Source of the DNA: Escherichia coli
GTDB lineage: Bacteria > Pseudomonadota > Gammaproteobacteria > Enterobacterales > Enterobacteriaceae
Assembly (NCBI RefSeq): GCF_044324875.1
Contig: NZ_CP172185.1
Length of the DNA: 64,000 nucleotides
Strand: one strand, 5' to 3'
Part shown: in pieces, positions 45,990-60,246 of the stretch
How the letters are laid out: every line of letters starts with the position of its first letter
Position numbering within the stretch: position 1 is the stretch's first letter
The notes under the pieces: generated by a model
Told to the model about the DNA's origin: nothing
Database searches by the model: none
What the model saw: the letters and a program-made list of their open reading frames with translations, nothing else
Translations under genes and position numbers: made by a program

Positions 45990-46811
45990 TTATAAAGAAA
46001 TGGCAGAATACTCTGTGTTTATCCATGAGTGTTCCTTTTCCCAGGTGAATATCCATTTACGTACTGGTCCGGCCATCACGTTAAGGTAATAACTGTCATA
46101 CCCGGCCATCGTCGCCACCGGGTGGTACCCTTTCGGCACCATGACCACGTCACGGTTATAGACCGCCATACATTCATCAAGTGTGCGGTCATCGGTATAC
46201 ACCCGCTGCATGCAGAACCCCTGTTCCGGGTTGAGGCGATGGTAATAGGTCTCCTCCAGATAGCTCTCCTGAGGCGGGTTATTCGTATCGTGTTTATGGC
46301 TCGGGTACGAACTGGTACAGCCTTCGTTGGTCCAGACCTCGACGACCAGCAGGCTGTCAGCGGGCTTGTCTTCCGGCAAAATATTATGCACATAACGCTG
46401 GTTGTGGCCGTTACCGCGCGCTTCGCCATCGATATCCTGAGGTGCAATCAACCGCGTCGGGTATGTCCCTTTTCCCGGAGCGGTACAGACTGCCAGCTCC
46501 AGTTTCGTCAGCGCCTTCACCTGCACTGCCTCCTGCGGGGTGACGTAAACCGCCCAAGGTTTGATGCGCTCGAACGGGCTCATCCGCTCCCCGATATCAG
46601 TAAACTGTGCAGAAGGAGTGCTGATGAAAGCGCGCCCGGCCACAAGCACCAGACAGCGCTCTTCACTGACAGCGGGCAGCGTCAGTTGCTGCCCTTCCTC
46701 AAGTTCATAGGCCTCAAAGCCAACATATCCCCATCCGGCGCTTTCCGGCGTGACAGACTGAGTCCGCCCCTCAGCGTTCGGCTGTTGCCAGCGTGATAAC
46801 AGACGTGACAT
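45990..46811 (-). CDS. iolB: 5-deoxy-glucuronate isomerase IolB
   Basis: 273-aa cupin-like ORF at the 3' end of the iol gene array. Confidence 0.75.
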   Translation of the reverse strand: MSRLLSRWQQPNAEGRTQSVTPESAGWGYVGFEAYELEEGQQLTLPAVSEERCLVLVAGRAFISTPSAQFTDIGERMSPFERIKPWAVYVTPQEAVQVKALTKLELAVCTAPGKGTYPTRLIAPQDIDGEARGNGHNQRYVHNILPEDKPADSLLVVEVWTNEGCTSSYPSHKHDTNNPPQESYLEETYYHRLNPEQGFCMQRVYTDDRTLDECMAVYNRDVVMVPKGYHPVATMAGYDSYYLNVMAGPVRKWIFTWEKEHSWINTEYSAISL

Positions 46812-46820
46812 GTCACCTCC

Positions 46821-47711
46821 TCAGATAAGCCCGGCGTCGCGCGCCAGGCGGCTCAGATTGTTATATCCCAGACGGGCGTAGGTCAGCGGATGGGCGATCG
46901 CCGGGTCCTGTTCAGCCTCCACCACCAGCCAACCGTGATAATCCTGCGTTTTCAGCAGTTGCATAATCGGCGGATAATCCACGCAGCCGTCACCCGGCAC
47001 GGTAAACACGCCGCTCAGCACCGCGTCGAGGAAGCTGGTTTTACGGTTTTTGACGTCCGCCAGCACGTCGGCGCGCACATCTTTGCAGTGAACATGATTG
47101 ATGCGCGATGCCCATCGCTGTGCCACCGCCAGCGGATCGGCCCCGGCAAAGGTCAGGTGGCCGGTATCCAGCAGTAAACCAACCTCCTCACCCGTGTGGA
47201 GCATCAGGTTGTCCACGTCTTGAGCGGACTCAATCACCGTGCCCATATGATGGTGGTAAGCAATCTGTACCCCCTGTTGCTGCGTATAGCGGGCGAACAC
47301 GGTGAGCTTCTCACCATACTCTTTCCAGCATTCCTGCGGGAAACGTGGGCGCAGGTGAACCGGCGTCTGCTGCTCACCGTGAATGCAGCCACTCACTTCC
47401 GCAAAAACCAGTACTTTTGCACCCAGCTCTCGCAGCAGCGTCAGATGCGACTGCACAGCAGCAATCTCGTCCTCTACACTGCGTTCCAACAGGCGGCCGG
47501 AATACCAGCCGGAGACCAACTGCAGGTCGTGGCGCTGCAAAATGGGCCCGAGCAGGCGCGCTTCTCGCGGGAATTTATTGCCCAGTTCGAAGCCAGCAAA
47601 ACCGGCCTCTTTCCCTTCACTCAGGCAGGTCTCCAGAGATGTCTCCGCGCCCAGTGAAGGCAGATCATCGTTCGTCCACGTCAGCGGGTTGATGCCCAGT
47701 TGTACACTCAT
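46821..47711 (-). CDS. iolE: Inosose dehydratase IolE (xylose-isomerase-like TIM barrel)
   Basis: Sugar-phosphate isomerase/epimerase fold; start set at MSVQLGINPLTW, just after the iolC stop. Confidence 0.75.
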   Translation of the reverse strand: MSVQLGINPLTWTNDDLPSLGAETSLETCLSEGKEAGFAGFELGNKFPREARLLGPILQRHDLQLVSGWYSGRLLERSVEDEIAAVQSHLTLLRELGAKVLVFAEVSGCIHGEQQTPVHLRPRFPQECWKEYGEKLTVFARYTQQQGVQIAYHHHMGTVIESAQDVDNLMLHTGEEVGLLLDTGHLTFAGADPLAVAQRWASRINHVHCKDVRADVLADVKNRKTSFLDAVLSGVFTVPGDGCVDYPPIMQLLKTQDYHGWLVVEAEQDPAIAHPLTYARLGYNNLSRLARDAGLI

Positions 47712-47722
47712 TGTCGTCTCCA

Positions 47723-57578: not shown

Positions 57579-57589
57579 AAAACCCCCTG

Positions 57590-59095
57590 TCAGCCCAGCG
57601 TCGGCATGGAGAACGCTGCACCTGTCTCCTGCTGCATTTCCGGCCAGCGTGCAGTGATGGTTTTCATTCGGGTGTAGAAACGCACGCCATCGTTCCCGTG
57701 AACATTGAGCGCGCCAAAAATGGAACGTTTCCAGCCACCGAAACAGTGGAATGCCATTGGCACCGGGATCGGCACGTTGACCCCCACCATACCCGCCTGC
57801 ACCTCTTCACAAAAGCGGCGTGCGCAGCCACCGTCACGGGTGAAAATGGCCGAGCCATTACCATATTCGTGTCGGTTAATCAGATCCACCGCGCTGGCGT
57901 AATCTGCTACGCGCACCACAGAAAGCACCGGTCCGAAAATTTCTTCTTTATAGATGGTCATCTCCGGGGTGACGTTATCGAACAGAGTCGGCCCAACGAA
58001 ATAGCCCTGCTCGTGCCCTTTCACTCTGAGGCCACGCCCGTCCACACGCAGGTTAGCCCCCTGAGCTTCGCCACTGTCGATATAGCCCAACACTTTGCTG
58101 CGGTGTGCGGCGGAGATCAGCGGCCCCATCTCGTTTTCTGGCGTCTGGTTCAGGCCAGGTCCGACGCGCAACGAAGCGATCTTTTTTTCCAGCCGGGCGC
58201 AGAGTTCATCAGCCGTTTTATCGCCAACCGCCACCACCACGGAAAGCGCCATGCAGCGTTCTCCTGCCGCACCATAAGCTGCGCCCATTATGGCGTTTGT
58301 CGCCATATCCATATCGGCATCCGGCATTAAAATGCAGTGGTTTTTCGCACCGCCGAGCGCCTGACAGCGCTTACCGTGGGCGGACGCAGTCAGGTACATG
58401 TATTCGGCAATCGGTGTTGAACCGACAAAACTGACGGCCTGCACGCGCGGGTCGGTCAGGAGCACATCAACGGATTCTTTATCGCCCTGCACCACGTTGA
58501 ATACGCCGTCCGGCAGGCCTGCCTCTTTCAGCAGTTTCGCCAGCGCGAGCGCCAGAGACGGATCTTTTTCCGACGGTTTCAGCACGAAGGTGTTGCCTGT
58601 CGCCAGAGCTATCGGGAACATCCACATTGGCACCATCGCCGGGAAGTTAAACGGCGTGATCCCGGCGCAGACCCCGAGCGGCTGCATCAGTGAGTGGCTG
58701 TCGACACCTGTGCCAACGTTCGCAGAGTGTTCGCCTTTTTGCAGATGTGGGATGCCGCAGGCGAATTCTACCACTTCCAGACCACGGGTCAGTTCACCTA
58801 CTGCATCTGAGAAGACCTTACCGTGTTCTTCACTGATAATACGGGCCAGACGCTCCATATTCTCTTCAAGCAACGCTTTGAAGCGGAACATCACACGCGC
58901 GCGCTTGAGTGGAGCAAAACGTGCCCACGCGGGAAACGCCAACTGTGCTGCGGCAATCGCCTGTTCGGTTTCCTGTGCCGTACTCATCACCACCTGGCGA
59001 ATCTGCTCGCCAGTGGCCGGGTTGAAGATCGCCTGAATGCGCTGGCCTGAACCGGTGACACATTCGCCGTGAATAAAATTCGCTACCGTCTCCAT
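57590..59095 (-). CDS. iolA: CoA-acylating methylmalonate-semialdehyde dehydrogenase IolA/MmsA
   Basis: 501-aa aldehyde dehydrogenase with catalytic Cys region (GERCMA). Confidence 0.8.
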
Positions 59096-59385
59096 CCTTA
59101 ACCTCTCGCTGTTGATACGTGATTGTTACCTGAACGTTATGTACTGAACACTATATATGAAACAAATATTCCATTTTAAGTTGAAATAAAATAAATAATG
59201 ATTATTGTGATCAAGGATGGATTTTTATGTGAACAGCCAGCATCACTGACTCAGCCTGAGCTATTAGGAGTTTCGGGCGAGGAAATGACTGAAGCTTCTG
59301 TTTCATTTTTGCTGCCAAGTGGATGGCCAACATTTAAAAGACGCGGTTTTGCGTTTAGAATCATGAGACTGGATAGGGGGATAAC

Positions 59386-60246
59386 ATGACGACAGCAACC
59401 AGCCTGAACGAACTACAAAAGCAAATCCGCGATCGCTACGATAGCCTGAGCAAAAGGCTGCAGCAGGTCTCCCGCTATGTACTGGATAATACGAACAGTG
59501 TCGCGTTTGATACGGTTGCGGTCATAGCCGAACGTGCCGATGTTCCACCCTCTACACTGATTCGTTTTGCCAATGCCTTTGACTTCACCGGCTTCAACGA
59601 AATGAAACAGTTATTTCGTATGCACCTGGTGGAGGAAACCGCCAGCTACAGCGATCGTGCGCGACTGTTCCGCGAAATGGAGAGCGAAGCCGTACCTGAA
59701 ACGCCGCTCGATATTTTGCAGGAGTTCGCCAGTTCGAACTCGCAGGCGCTGCAGCAGTTGGCTGCCCGCGCCGAACCGGAGATGCTGGAGCACGCCGTAC
59801 AACTACTGGCCTACGCCGACACCATTTACATCGCCGGATTACGCAGATCCTTTAGCATTGCTGCTTATCTTACCTATGCTTTAAGCCACCTAGAGTGCCG
59901 CCCTATTCTGCTTGACGGGATGGGCGGCATGCTGCGCGAACAGATCAGCCGTATTAAGGCGTGCGACATTGTGGTGTCGATCAGTTTCTCGCCGTACGCG
60001 GAAGAAACGGCGATGGTCAGCAAAACCGCCGCCAGCGTCGGCGCTCGGCAGATTGTGATTACGGATAGCCAGATCAGCCCACTGGCAACGTTCAGTGATC
60101 TCTGCTTTGTGGTGAAAGAGGCTCAGGTGGACGCATTTCGGTCTCAGTCGGCAACATTGTGTCTGGTGCAGTCGTTAGTGGTCGCGCTAGCTTACCGTTT
60201 AGGAGATAAAAAACATAATAATACCCAGGAAAACAGTAACCAATAA
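59386..60246 (+). CDS. iolR: RpiR-family transcriptional regulator (HTH + SIS domain), probable iol repressor IolR
   Basis: 286-aa ORF divergent from the iol array; N-terminal HTH and C-terminal SIS-like domain. Confidence 0.75.
   Translation: MTTATSLNELQKQIRDRYDSLSKRLQQVSRYVLDNTNSVAFDTVAVIAERADVPPSTLIRFANAFDFTGFNEMKQLFRMHLVEETASYSDRARLFREMESEAVPETPLDILQEFASSNSQALQQLAARAEPEMLEHAVQLLAYADTIYIAGLRRSFSIAAYLTYALSHLECRPILLDGMGGMLREQISRIKACDIVVSISFSPYAEETAMVSKTAASVGARQIVITDSQISPLATFSDLCFVVKEAQVDAFRSQSATLCLVQSLVVALAYRLGDKKHNNTQENSNQ

What the first reader, a model, noticed from the sequence alone, without database searches (positions are those of the whole stretch)
45990..60246. Complete myo-inositol catabolism island (iolA, iolB, iolC, iolD, iolE, two dehydrogenases, ABC importer, iolR)
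Ten contiguous minus-strand genes encode every step from inositol uptake and oxidation to acetyl-CoA, with a divergent RpiR-type repressor gene. As far as I recall, inositol utilisation is not part of the core metabolism of most E. coli, so this is acquired metabolic cargo that could confer a gut or plant-associated niche advantage. The uptake system is an ABC cassette rather than the MFS IolT known from Salmonella.
Basis: partly seen in the sequence, partly recalled or inferred. Interest (0 to 1): 0.45.

Follow-up and report, generated by a model that had tools for sequence, protein, structure and literature searches.

The report
Acquired myo-inositol catabolism gene cluster
This is an intact, horizontally acquired set of eleven genes that should let a minority (about 1%) of E. 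coli strains import and burn the plant- and milk-derived sugar alcohol myo-inositol; the cluster type, its rarity in E. coli and its link to livestock strains are already described, so it is real but ordinary.

Summary
Ten tightly packed, intact minus-strand genes lie at 45990-59095, with a divergent RpiR-type regulator at 59386-60246.

Curated NCBIfam models above their cut-offs identify IolB, IolE, IolG, IolD, IolA (CoA-acylating malonate/methylmalonate-semialdehyde dehydrogenase) and an IolC kinase fused to a DUF2090 aldolase domain.

The ABC importer's binding protein is 69% identical to solved structure 4RXM and matches 4IRX. From memory, 4IRX is Caulobacter IbpA.

The second dehydrogenase falls in the scyllo-inositol/levoglucosan dehydrogenase clade. 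Its substrate is not settled.

Gene order is identical in Lelliottia, Enterobacter, Citrobacter, Yersinia and Dickeya, with 74-90% nucleotide identity.

About 50 of 5,426 complete E. coli genomes carry the cluster. About 43 copies are chromosomal, on a shared ~18-kb IS-flanked module found in different islands. Seven are on plasmids and represent a separate lineage (88.8% identity). About half of the chromosomal carriers come from cattle.

Published work already reports fewer than 2% of E. coli with iol clusters, this operon architecture, and enrichment in dairy multidrug-resistant E. coli.

Growth on inositol remains inferred.

The parts
45990..46811 (-). iolB, 5-deoxy-glucuronate isomerase (273 aa)
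   Evidence: NCBIfam TIGR04378 321.5 bits against cut-off 205; Pfam KduI/IolB. Annotated iolB in RefSeq.
46821..47711 (-). iolE, myo-inosose-2 dehydratase (296 aa)
   Evidence: TIGR04379 428.5 bits against cut-off 290. Annotated start at 47711.
47723..49627 (-). iolC fused to DUF2090: 5-dehydro-2-deoxygluconokinase plus 5-dehydro-2-deoxyphosphogluconate aldolase (634 aa). It supplies the IolJ step.
   Evidence: NF047869 942.5 bits against cut-off 600; PfkB residues 6-321 and DUF2090 residues 324-631. Lys465 and Glu503 are invariant in 82 orthologues and lie 38 residues apart, the same spacing as the Lys493/Glu531 pair proposed as catalytic (PMC9007349).
49640..50773 (-). Second Gfo/Idh/MocA dehydrogenase (377 aa), in the scyllo-inositol/levoglucosan dehydrogenase clade; substrate not settled
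   Evidence: Best solved relative is 5YA8, a scyllo-inositol dehydrogenase (E 5e-96, 43.5% identity). Below cut-off for the IolG model (122/355) and the levoglucosan dehydrogenase model (364/650).
50782..51810 (-). ABC importer permease (IatP-like, 342 aa)
   Evidence: Pfam BPD_transp_2; ribose-type permease models below cut-off.
51822..53369 (-). ABC importer ATPase with two nucleotide-binding domains (IatA-like, 515 aa)
   Evidence: Two ABC_tran domains; AraG/XylG/RbsA-like models below cut-offs.
53421..54350 (-). Periplasmic binding protein (IbpA-like, 309 aa) with a Sec signal peptide
   Evidence: phmmer against PDB: 4RXM E 1.8e-135 (69.4% identity) and 4IRX E 3.6e-70. N-terminus MKKLILAALIAMTSGAAIA|ENE.
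54382..55368 (-). iolG, myo-inositol 2-dehydrogenase (328 aa)
   Evidence: TIGR04380 439.9 bits against cut-off 355.
55369..55652 (-). Internal control region. It holds a terminator-like hairpin after iolD (55601-55571), a TATAAT hexamer (55455-55450) and an operator-like site ATGAAATAAATGTTTTA (55432-55416) upstream of iolG.
   Evidence: Hairpin with a 14-bp stem, 10 G-C pairs and a T-run. Sequence read. The operator-like block is conserved in 14 taxa from E. coli to Dickeya.
55653..57578 (-). iolD, trihydroxycyclohexane-1,2-dione acylhydrolase (641 aa, thiamine-diphosphate enzyme)
   Evidence: TIGR04377 934.1 bits against cut-off 715.
57590..59095 (-). iolA/mmsA, CoA-acylating malonate/methylmalonate-semialdehyde dehydrogenase (501 aa)
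   Evidence: TIGR01722 675.7 bits against cut-off 448.5.
59096..59385 (.). Divergent iolA/iolR control region with two operator-like sites: ATGGAATATTTGTTTCA (59174-59158, minus strand) and ATGAAACAGAAGCTTCA (59306-59290, minus strand)
   Evidence: Both blocks are conserved across genera. The first overlaps a promoter-like match at 59179-59150. The pattern occurs 4 times in the window against 0.34 expected, but it was derived from these sites.
59386..60246 (+). iolR, RpiR/MurR-family regulator (286 aa)
   Evidence: Pfam HTH_6 (residues 10-86) and SIS (residues 141-267). Annotated MurR/RpiR in RefSeq.
42789..45989 (.). Low-GC (34.9%) companion segment that always travels with the E. coli chromosomal cluster. 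It holds a frameshifted MarR-family gene (43222-43723) and an orphan ORF (44353-44820).
   Evidence: Shared at 98-100% identity with C51, K99B and TUM9803. Same neighbours in ten further contigs. No Pfam or NCBIfam match for the orphan.
60247..60749 (.). Right edge of the shared E. coli module, with a transposase remnant (60433-60742)
   Evidence: Shared sequence with C51 and K99B ends at 60749. Annotated as a frameshifted partial transposase.

Best explanation
This is an intact, laterally acquired myo-inositol utilisation cluster of the Enterobacter/Citrobacter/Pectobacterium type. Its layout is iolR <> iolA-iolD | iolG-ibpA-iatA-iatP-idh-iolC(J)-iolE-iolB.

Proposed mechanism, inferred from the families involved:
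- A secreted binding protein captures myo-inositol in the periplasm and hands it to the permease/ATPase pair.
- IolG oxidises it with NAD+ to scyllo-inosose.
- IolE dehydrates it.
- IolD opens the ring to 5-deoxy-glucuronate.
- IolB isomerises that to 2-deoxy-5-keto-gluconate.
- The PfkB half of the fusion protein phosphorylates it, and the DUF2090 half cleaves it to dihydroxyacetone phosphate and malonate semialdehyde.
- IolA converts malonate semialdehyde to acetyl-CoA and CO2.
- The second dehydrogenase probably feeds another inositol isomer (scyllo-inositol is the best guess) into the same route.
- IolR probably represses the iolAD, iolG-B and iolR promoters by binding GGAA-N6-TTYC-like sites. 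A phosphorylated pathway intermediate bound by its SIS domain probably releases it.

Shown here: gene identities, intactness, synteny, rarity and mobility. Inferred: actual growth, the inducer, the operator assignment and the second dehydrogenase's substrate.
For: - Six enzymes score above the curated cut-offs of their NCBIfam models: equivalog models for IolB, IolE, IolG and IolD, an exception-type model for the kinase-aldolase fusion and a subfamily model for IolA.
- All eleven proteins are full length relative to orthologues.
- Genes are 8-51 nt apart, apart from one 284-nt gap that holds a strong hairpin plus an A+T-rich promoter region.
- The binding protein is 69% identical to 4RXM and matches 4IRX at E 3.6e-70. 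The homologous ibpA-iatA-iatP transporter is genetically required for inositol growth in Caulobacter and Sinorhizobium, and an RpiR-type IolR with a GGAA-N6-TTCC operator controls that module (PMC2597717).
- IolC-DUF2090 fusions are needed for inositol growth in nine bacteria (PMC9007349). Lys465 and Glu503 are invariant here.
- Identical gene order is found in 12 or more genera of Enterobacterales. The same iolADGXYZ-idh-iolCEB layout has been described for Pectobacterium, Brenneria and Dickeya; the same source reports an IolXYZ-containing cluster with Enterobacter-like IolG in hypervirulent Aeromonas hydrophila. In that species, 47 of 47 positive isolates grew on myo-inositol (PMC3835674).
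- Acquisition is supported by GC of 57.2% against 52.2% for the core and 34.9% for the neighbouring segment, by IS remnants on both sides, and by the same 17.96-kb module sitting in different islands.
- Prevalence is about 0.9% of complete genomes, in line with the published figure of under 2%.
Against: - I found no published growth experiment for any E. coli carrier.
- The cluster decays in some lineages: iolD is frameshifted in strain C51, and other strains keep only iolB or iolR scars. The benefit is therefore conditional.
- Salmonella shows very long lag phases and bistable induction on inositol (abstracts), so intact genes do not guarantee a prompt phenotype.
- The operator motif is degenerate relative to GGAA-N6-TTCC, and I derived it from the very sites it matches.
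- The second dehydrogenase has His where the characterised scyllo-inositol dehydrogenase has the substrate-binding residues Tyr163 and Arg178.
- That the ligand in 4RXM is myo-inositol, and that 4IRX is Caulobacter IbpA, rest on my memory, not on a tool result.
Confidence: 0.88

Rival explanations
1. The genes are intact, but the cluster is cryptic or nearly silent in E. coli. It could be tightly repressed by IolR or H-NS, or lack a host-specific activator. Carriers would then be phenotypically inositol-negative under ordinary conditions, and the module would simply hitch-hike on mosaic islands alongside iron-uptake and adhesin genes.
For: - No E. coli growth data were found.
- Repeated decay is seen: a frameshifted iolD in C51, and iolR-only and iolB-only scars elsewhere.
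- The cluster sits next to very A+T-rich DNA, a typical H-NS target (34.9% GC).
- Salmonella needs extra regulators and shows lag phases of 30 hours or more (abstracts).
- The module is physically close to sit and fec loci. This could explain by linkage why all three are enriched together in multidrug-resistant dairy isolates.
Against: - All eleven genes are intact in 40 or more independent genomes at 99-100% identity.
- Regulatory blocks are conserved with the likely donor genera.
- Hypervirulent Aeromonas hydrophila, whose iol cluster also carries the IolXYZ importer and Enterobacter-like IolG, grows on myo-inositol after acquiring the cluster by lateral transfer.
- Some strains keep two full copies (H3 and H67).
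Confidence: 0.12
2. The cluster's main substrate is a different cyclitol or sugar (scyllo- or D-chiro-inositol, pinitol, a rhizopine-like compound, or a sugar acid), not myo-inositol.
For: A second dehydrogenase from the scyllo-inositol/levoglucosan dehydrogenase clade is embedded in the operon. The ABC components score highest against ribose, arabinose and xylose transporter models, though all fall below cut-off.
Against: - IolG passes the myo-inositol 2-dehydrogenase equivalog cut-off (439.9 against 355).
- The rhizopine binding-protein model scores 47.5 against a cut-off of 420, and the RbsB model 166 against 337.
- The closest solved binding proteins are 4RXM and 4IRX, not ribose-binding proteins (E 1e-135 and 1e-70 against 1e-40).
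- All downstream enzymes are specific equivalogs of the myo-inositol route.
Confidence: 0.04
3. The cluster is ancestral to E. coli and has been lost from most lineages, rather than acquired.
For: Scars of the cluster exist in several genomes.
Against: - It lies at different chromosomal positions within different islands, always inside the same IS-bounded ~18-kb module.
- Its GC content is 5 points above the core chromosome in the window.
- Copies are 99-100% identical across unrelated carriers.
- A second, 88.8%-identical lineage sits on plasmids.
Confidence: 0.01

Closest known systems
Enterobacterales iol cluster 'iolADGXYZ-idh-iolCEB' (described for Pectobacterium, Brenneria, Dickeya and Enterobacter; an IolXYZ-containing cluster with Enterobacter-like IolG in hypervirulent Aeromonas hydrophila ST251): bioRxiv 10.1101/2024.01.16.575920; PMC3835674
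   Same: Gene content and order are identical, including the ABC importer, the extra dehydrogenase, the IolC-DUF2090 fusion and the divergent RpiR regulator. I verified collinearity directly in Lelliottia, Enterobacter, Citrobacter, Yokenella, Pluralibacter, Edwardsiella, Cedecea, Yersinia pestis and Dickeya. As in A. hydrophila, the cluster sits in an integrase- and IS-bearing island.
   Different: The host is E. coli, where the cluster is rare. The nearest species representative is only 89.5% identical in DNA (Lelliottia nimipressuralis), so the exact donor has not been sampled. In E. coli the cluster travels with an extra low-GC MarR/orphan-gene segment that is absent from the other genera.
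Caulobacter crescentus / Sinorhizobium meliloti inositol module (IbpA-IatA-IatP importer, RpiR-type IolR, GGAA-N6-TTCC operator): PMC2597717
   Same: Same class of importer: the binding protein matches 4IRX at E 3.6e-70. Same class of repressor (HTH_6 plus SIS). There is a related, imperfectly palindromic site upstream of each transcription unit.
   Different: In Caulobacter the transporter operon lies about 500 kb from the enzyme genes; here everything is in one block. The candidate operators are degenerate (GGAA-N6-TTTC, GAAA-N6-TTTT, GAAA-N6-CTTC) and have not been tested.
Salmonella enterica genomic island GEI4417/4436 (and the colinear cluster of E. coli ED1a)
   Same: A laterally acquired island that confers myo-inositol catabolism on an enteric bacterium, with an RpiR-type IolR repressor and the same IolG/E/D/B/C/A chemistry.
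   Different: Salmonella uses the MFS transporters IolT1 and IolT2. It also carries the activator ReiD, SrfJ, two IolG paralogues and small RNAs, in a larger, differently ordered island. None of these is present here.
Bacillus subtilis iolABCDEFGHIJ operon
   Same: Same reaction sequence from myo-inositol to dihydroxyacetone phosphate plus acetyl-CoA.
   Different: Bacillus uses a separate class II aldolase (IolJ), an MFS transporter (IolT/IolF) and a DeoR-type IolR. Here the aldolase is a DUF2090 domain fused to IolC, uptake is by an ABC system and the repressor is RpiR-type.

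Membership tests
Inositol catabolic gene cluster (IolCatGC, as defined by Weber and Fuchs 2022, PMC9430895) | [quoted passage not shown] | tested here: met
   All four are present, intact and contiguous, and each passes its NCBIfam cut-off. Definition read.
Inositol catabolic gene cluster (IolCatGC) | An inositol dehydrogenase gene lies in or near the cluster | tested here: met
   IolG TIGR04380 scores 439.9 bits against a cut-off of 355. A second Gfo/Idh/MocA gene is also present.
Inositol catabolic gene cluster (IolCatGC) | Confers growth on myo-inositol as sole carbon source | not testable with these tools
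   No E. coli growth data were found in the searchable literature. Growth has been shown for hypervirulent Aeromonas hydrophila, whose iol cluster also contains the IolXYZ importer.
IbpA/IatA/IatP-type inositol ABC importer | Periplasmic binding protein homologous to characterised inositol-binding proteins | tested here: met
   4RXM E 1.8e-135 (69.4% identity) and 4IRX E 3.6e-70, against about 1e-40 for ribose-binding proteins. That 4IRX is Caulobacter IbpA, and that both structures hold myo-inositol, is from memory.
IbpA/IatA/IatP-type inositol ABC importer | Three-component operon (binding protein, double-domain ATPase, permease) co-regulated with iol genes | tested here: met
   The three genes lie between iolG and the second dehydrogenase, with gaps of 11-51 nt.
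RpiR-type IolR repressor (Caulobacter/Sinorhizobium/Salmonella class) | N-terminal RpiR helix-turn-helix plus SIS sugar-phosphate-binding domain, encoded next to the iol genes | tested here: met
   HTH_6 at residues 10-86 and SIS at residues 141-267. The gene is divergent from iolA.
RpiR-type IolR repressor | GGAA-N6-TTCC operator upstream of the regulated operons | tested here: inconclusive
   There is no perfect match. Three related sites (ATGGAA-N6-TTTCA, ATGAAA-N6-TTTTA, ATGAAA-N6-CTTCA) lie upstream of iolA, iolG and iolR and are conserved across genera. Binding has not been tested.
Bifunctional IolC-DUF2090 kinase/aldolase | PfkB kinase domain fused to DUF2090, scoring above the NF047869 cut-off | tested here: met
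   942.5 bits against a cut-off of 600; PfkB at residues 6-321 and DUF2090 at residues 324-631.
Bifunctional IolC-DUF2090 kinase/aldolase | Conserved Lys/Glu pair proposed as the class I aldolase catalytic residues | tested here: met
   Lys465 and Glu503 are invariant in 82 orthologues (at least 70.6% identity) and lie 38 residues apart, as do Lys493/Glu531 of the Burkholderia protein. A direct alignment to LacD was not possible: phmmer against PDB found nothing.
scyllo-Inositol dehydrogenase subfamily (Paracoccus Pl-scyllo-IDH, PDB 5YA8) | Catalytic Lys-Asp-His triad and the swapped-loop His318 | tested here: met
   Lys103, Asp188, His192 and His319 align with Lys106, Asp191, His195 and His318 (alignment; residues named).
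scyllo-Inositol dehydrogenase subfamily (Paracoccus Pl-scyllo-IDH) | Substrate-contact residues Tyr163 and Arg178 | tested here: not met
   Both positions are His in the window protein (His160, His175). I therefore place it in the clade by sequence similarity (best PDB matches; no tree was built) and do not file it as a proven scyllo-inositol dehydrogenase.
Levoglucosan dehydrogenase (NF052479) / IolG (TIGR04380), tested for the second dehydrogenase | Score above the curated equivalog cut-off | tested here: not met
   363.6 against 650 and 122.4 against 355.
Horizontally acquired genomic-island cargo | Deviant base composition, flanking mobility genes, patchy distribution and variable location | tested here: met
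   GC is 57.2% against 52.2% for the core. IS remnants and an integrase are present. About 0.9% of genomes carry it. It occurs in at least four different genomic contexts and on plasmids.

The most novel reading that the evidence does not exclude
The most novel reading not excluded is that inositol catabolism acts as a mobile, host-diet-linked fitness module in livestock E. coli. It would have been acquired at least twice: once as a chromosomal ~18-kb module now scattered among islands, and once on conjugative plasmids as a distinct lineage that is slightly closer to Enterobacter and Lelliottia. Its physical linkage to iron-uptake loci (sit, fec) could explain why these traits are co-enriched in multidrug-resistant calf isolates. 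In addition, the embedded second dehydrogenase, with His replacing two substrate-contact residues, may open a substrate that has not been described, such as another inositol isomer or a methylated cyclitol from forage.
Probability: 0.15. Interest if true: 0.4.

Novelty: already known. Interest (0 to 1): 0.15.

Why it matters
It matters modestly. myo-Inositol, released from dietary phytate and present in milk, is a nutrient that most E. coli cannot use. A strain carrying this cluster could occupy a niche in the calf, poultry or human gut that its competitors cannot.

About half of the chromosomal carriers among complete genomes come from cattle. A published survey found the genes in 22% of multidrug-resistant but only 3% of susceptible dairy isolates. 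The cluster is therefore a plausible colonisation factor and a marker of livestock-associated lineages.

It does not reveal new biology. The pathway, the cluster architecture, the transporter type, the fusion aldolase and the rarity in E. coli have all been published.

Tried and rejected
- I first assumed the window was strain TUM9803, because the cluster is 100% identical. That was wrong for the upstream part. The window lacks an IS3 insertion at about 44.0 kb and has glnH, not gcvP, next to the integrase.
- IolR appeared to be missing or mosaic in the related genera, with only 19-47% coverage. This was an artefact: the fetched loci stop 10 kb upstream of iolC.
- An Rfam scan of 42-62 kb at E <= 0.1 found no RNA family.
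- phmmer of the DUF2090 domain against PDB found nothing at E <= 1, so I could not align it directly to LacD. I used invariant residues instead.
- A single-sequence AlphaFold model of the binding protein was poor (mean pLDDT 46.9), so I did not use it for a fold search.
- Literature searches for growth of E. coli carriers on inositol, including ATCC 8739, found no direct test.
- The Salmonella IolR paper gave no operator consensus to compare with.
- No species representative exceeded 89.5% DNA identity, so no donor species can be named.

Full report
**Observation**

The ORF list shows ten back-to-back minus-strand ORFs between 45990 and 59095, and a plus-strand ORF at 59386-60246. A 15-kb query around them is 100% identical to the chromosome of E. 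coli TUM9803. There RefSeq annotates eleven intact genes: iolB, iolE, a bifunctional kinase/aldolase, a Gfo/Idh/MocA protein, three ABC transporter genes, iolG, iolD, a CoA-acylating methylmalonate-semialdehyde dehydrogenase and a MurR/RpiR regulator.

Curated NCBIfam models pass their cut-offs for six enzymes:

| Protein | Score (bits) | Cut-off |
|---|---|---|
| IolB | 321.5 | 205 |
| IolE | 428.5 | 290 |
| IolC-aldolase fusion | 942.5 | 600 |
| IolG | 439.9 | 355 |
| IolD | 934.1 | 715 |
| IolA (MMSDH) | 675.7 | 448.5 |

Every protein aligns over about 100% of its length with orthologues from other genera, so nothing is truncated.

**Anatomy**

Gaps between neighbouring genes are 8-51 nt, with one exception: 284 nt between iolD and iolG. 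That gap holds a 14-bp-stem, G+C-rich hairpin followed by a T-run directly after iolD (55601-55571). After it comes an A+T-rich stretch with a perfect TATAAT (55455-55450, read). The cluster therefore looks like two operons, iolA-iolD and iolG through iolB, plus the divergent regulator gene.

That step is supplied by the C-terminal DUF2090 domain of the 634-aa 'IolC' (Pfam PfkB at residues 6-321 and DUF2090 at residues 324-631). [quoted passage not shown] Their grounds were that IolC-DUF2090 fusions are needed for inositol growth in nine bacteria and that the LacD catalytic Lys and Glu are conserved (PMC9007349). Here Lys465 and Glu503 are invariant across 82 orthologues and lie 38 residues apart, the same spacing as Lys493/Glu531 in their Burkholderia example.

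**Transporter**

The binding protein has a typical Sec signal peptide. Among solved structures it is closest to 4RXM (E 1.8e-135, 69.4% identity) and 4IRX (E 3.6e-70). Ribose-binding proteins are far behind at about 1e-40. From memory, 4IRX is Caulobacter IbpA and both structures contain myo-inositol; the tool output does not state this.

In Caulobacter and Sinorhizobium, the ibpA-iatA-iatP system is the genetically proven inositol importer (PMC2597717).

**Second dehydrogenase**

This protein fails both the IolG cut-off (122 against 355) and the levoglucosan dehydrogenase cut-off (364 against 650). Its best solved relative is the Paracoccus scyllo-inositol dehydrogenase 5YA8 (E 5e-96, 43.5% identity).

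The catalytic Lys-Asp-His triad and the swapped-loop His318 are conserved. However, the substrate contacts Tyr163 and Arg178 are both His here. I therefore place it in that clade by sequence similarity and leave its substrate open. scyllo-Inositol is the best guess.

**Regulation**

The regulator has an RpiR helix-turn-helix and a SIS domain, the class defined by Caulobacter IolR.

I aligned the two control regions from E. coli, the plasmid copy and twelve other taxa. Three short blocks stay conserved while the surrounding sequence diverges:
- AATGGAATATTTGTTTCAT upstream of iolA
- AATGAAATAAATGTTTTAT upstream of iolG
- AATGAAACAGAAGCTTCA near iolR

They share the form ATGRAA-N6-YTTYA, a degenerate relative of the Caulobacter operator GGAA-N6-TTCC. 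The pattern occurs four times in the window against 0.34 expected. Because I derived the pattern from these sites, only the cross-genus conservation counts as evidence. The iolA-proximal site overlaps a promoter-like match. Repression by promoter occlusion is inferred, not shown. No Rfam family matches the region.

**Origin and mobility**

The cluster is 57.2% G+C, against 52.2% for the core chromosome in the window and 34.9% for the 3.2 kb immediately downstream of iolB.

A scan of one genome per species found the identical gene order in many Enterobacterales:

| Taxon | DNA identity to the window cluster |
|---|---|
| Lelliottia nimipressuralis | 89.5% |
| Enterobacter soli | 89.0% |
| Enterobacter cloacae | 88.8% |
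| Citrobacter sedlakii | 87.7% |
| Other Citrobacter | 81.6-86.4% |
| Yokenella, Pluralibacter, Edwardsiella, Cedecea, Yersinia pestis, Dickeya | 82% down to 75% |

Protein identity to Lelliottia is 91-98%. Photorhabdus, Xenorhabdus, Providencia and some Aeromonas keep the enzymes but lack the ABC genes. No representative is close enough to name a donor species. The donor lineage is the Enterobacter/Lelliottia/Citrobacter part of the Enterobacteriaceae.

Within E. coli, the stretch shared by unrelated carriers runs from 42789 to 60749 (17.96 kb). It adds two things to the cluster: the low-GC segment, with a MarR-family gene (frameshifted in this window) and an orphan ORF, and a transposase remnant. 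This module sits in different settings in different strains:
- In the window and in strain Br_112_kylling, it lies in an island whose P4-type integrase follows glnH.
- In TUM9803, it follows an integrase next to gcvP.
- In C51, it lies between cdiA and a giant adhesin gene.
- In K99B, it lies in an argW-associated island beside the yersiniabactin locus.
- In the record labelled ATCC 8739, it lies next to fecIRA.

A distinct copy, 88.8% identical to the chromosomal one and 91.7% identical to Enterobacter cloacae and Lelliottia, sits on plasmids in seven genomes. The one I inspected, p14EC033c, is typed IncFIA/IncFII and conjugative. E. coli has therefore acquired this cluster type at least twice.

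**Distribution**

Of 5,426 complete E. coli genomes, 42 carry a full chromosomal copy at 99.0-100% identity. One more copy is split by the start of its record, and seven genomes carry the plasmid copy. That is about 0.9% in total.

Among the 42 chromosomal carriers, the recorded sources are:

| Source | Genomes |
|---|---|
| Cattle, calves, beef or buffalo | 20 |
| Farm environment | 1 |
| Chicken | 4 |
| Human | 7 |
| Dog | 1 |
| No usable source | 9 |

Some genomes keep only scars: iolR fragments next to afa-8 and F17 fimbrial operons, and an iolB plus iolE fragment in strain 744. C51 has a frameshifted iolD. One strain, CE0011b, has two full copies.

**Comparison with the literature**

- Weber and Fuchs surveyed 193,757 genomes and reported iol clusters in fewer than 2% of 20,632 E. 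coli genomes (PMC9430895). This cluster meets their definition, with all four core genes.
- Haley and colleagues found 'iolABCDEG-iatA' in 22% of multidrug-resistant and 3% of susceptible dairy E. coli, and noted that the genes are chromosomal (PMC10604827).
- A 2024 preprint describes the operon layout 'iolADGXYZ-idh-iolCEB' in Pectobacterium and Brenneria, with a similar region in Dickeya. It also reports an IolXYZ-containing iol cluster, whose IolG groups with Enterobacter, in hypervirulent Aeromonas hydrophila, where it lies in an island with an integrase and an IS3 element. In that Aeromonas lineage, all 47 isolates positive for an epidemic-associated marker grew on myo-inositol as sole carbon source, and all sequenced epidemic isolates carry the cluster (PMC3835674).
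- I found no growth experiment for an E. coli carrier. From memory, classical identification tables list about 1% of E. coli as inositol-positive, which would fit the genomic prevalence.

**Verdict**

My analysis adds the following:
- the aldolase assignment to the DUF2090 domain;
- the clade placement, and open substrate, of the second dehydrogenase;
- the two-operon structure and three candidate IolR sites;
- the true extent of the mobile module in E. coli;
- the existence of a second, plasmid-borne lineage;
- the prevalence and the host bias towards cattle.

None of this departs from known systems, so the feature is 'already known' and of low interest. The main uncertainty is phenotypic: whether, and how quickly, carriers actually grow on inositol.

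A small open lead is the physical proximity of iol to sit and fec loci on the same mosaic islands. This may explain why the three are co-enriched in resistant dairy isolates.

Noticed in passing
window 25772-29350: A P4-type tyrosine integrase (26736-27929) and a TPR protein (28295-29350) follow glnH (25772-26518) directly, and there is no tRNA gene anywhere in the window. The island therefore seems to lie between glnH and the rest of glnHPQ. In Br_112_kylling the far side of the island abuts yejO/narP, and in TUM9803 a related integrase abuts gcvP. This points either to several insertion sites or to IS-mediated inversions.
   Followed up: partly
window 42789-45989: A very A+T-rich segment (34.9% GC) holds a MarR-family gene (43222-43723), frameshifted here but intact in C51, K99B and the ATCC 8739 record. 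It also holds an orphan 141/155-aa ORF (44353-44820) with no Pfam or NCBIfam match. The segment always accompanies the chromosomal iol cluster in E. coli and is absent from the plasmid copy and from other genera.
   Followed up: partly
window 34051-36469: An IS21-family element (a transposase with rve and Mu-transposase C-terminal domains, plus an IstB-like ATPase) is inserted here. Otherwise near-identical islands in TUM9803 and Br_112_kylling lack it.
   Followed up: partly
window 38591-39505 and downstream: This is a decayed sitABCD manganese/iron uptake locus. sitA is intact and sitB is truncated, followed by IS66-family debris (40167-41618). Together with fecIRA next to the iol module in other strains, it suggests that iol, sit and fec are physically linked on mosaic islands.
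   Followed up: partly
window 60433-63392: A stack of IS fragments lies to the right of iolR: a transposase remnant (60433-60742), an N-terminally truncated IS110-family (RNA-guided) transposase (61021-61791) and an IS21/IS100-type istA (62370-63392) that interrupts an IS3 copy.
   Followed up: no
L087 20001-20817 (E. coli MMC-J-0085); L089 (strain 744): Other E. coli pathogenicity islands keep only scars of the module. One scar is the 3' two-thirds of iolR, next to afa-8 and F17 fimbrial operons and near fecIRA. Another is iolB plus an iolE fragment next to an afa-type operon. These indicate repeated loss of the cluster.
   Followed up: partly
E. coli CE0011b, NZ_CP119008.1 (hits H3 and H67): This genome holds two complete copies of the cluster at different chromosomal positions, each about 99.6% identical to the window. 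Three other records also show two matching places.
   Followed up: no
L003 (plasmid p14EC033c, IncFIA/IncFII, conjugative): A second lineage of the same cluster (88.8% identical) is carried on plasmids from human and pig isolates. In p14EC033c it is inserted between umuD and psiA/ardA leading-region genes, with an IS30 beside it. It is closer to Enterobacter cloacae and Lelliottia (91.7%) than to the chromosomal E. coli copy.
   Followed up: partly
window 30381-30397: This is the only match to the candidate IolR-site pattern outside the iol cluster (ATGAAACGTTTATTTTA). It lies in the A+T-rich part of the island near the EcsC-family gene and is probably a chance match.
   Followed up: no
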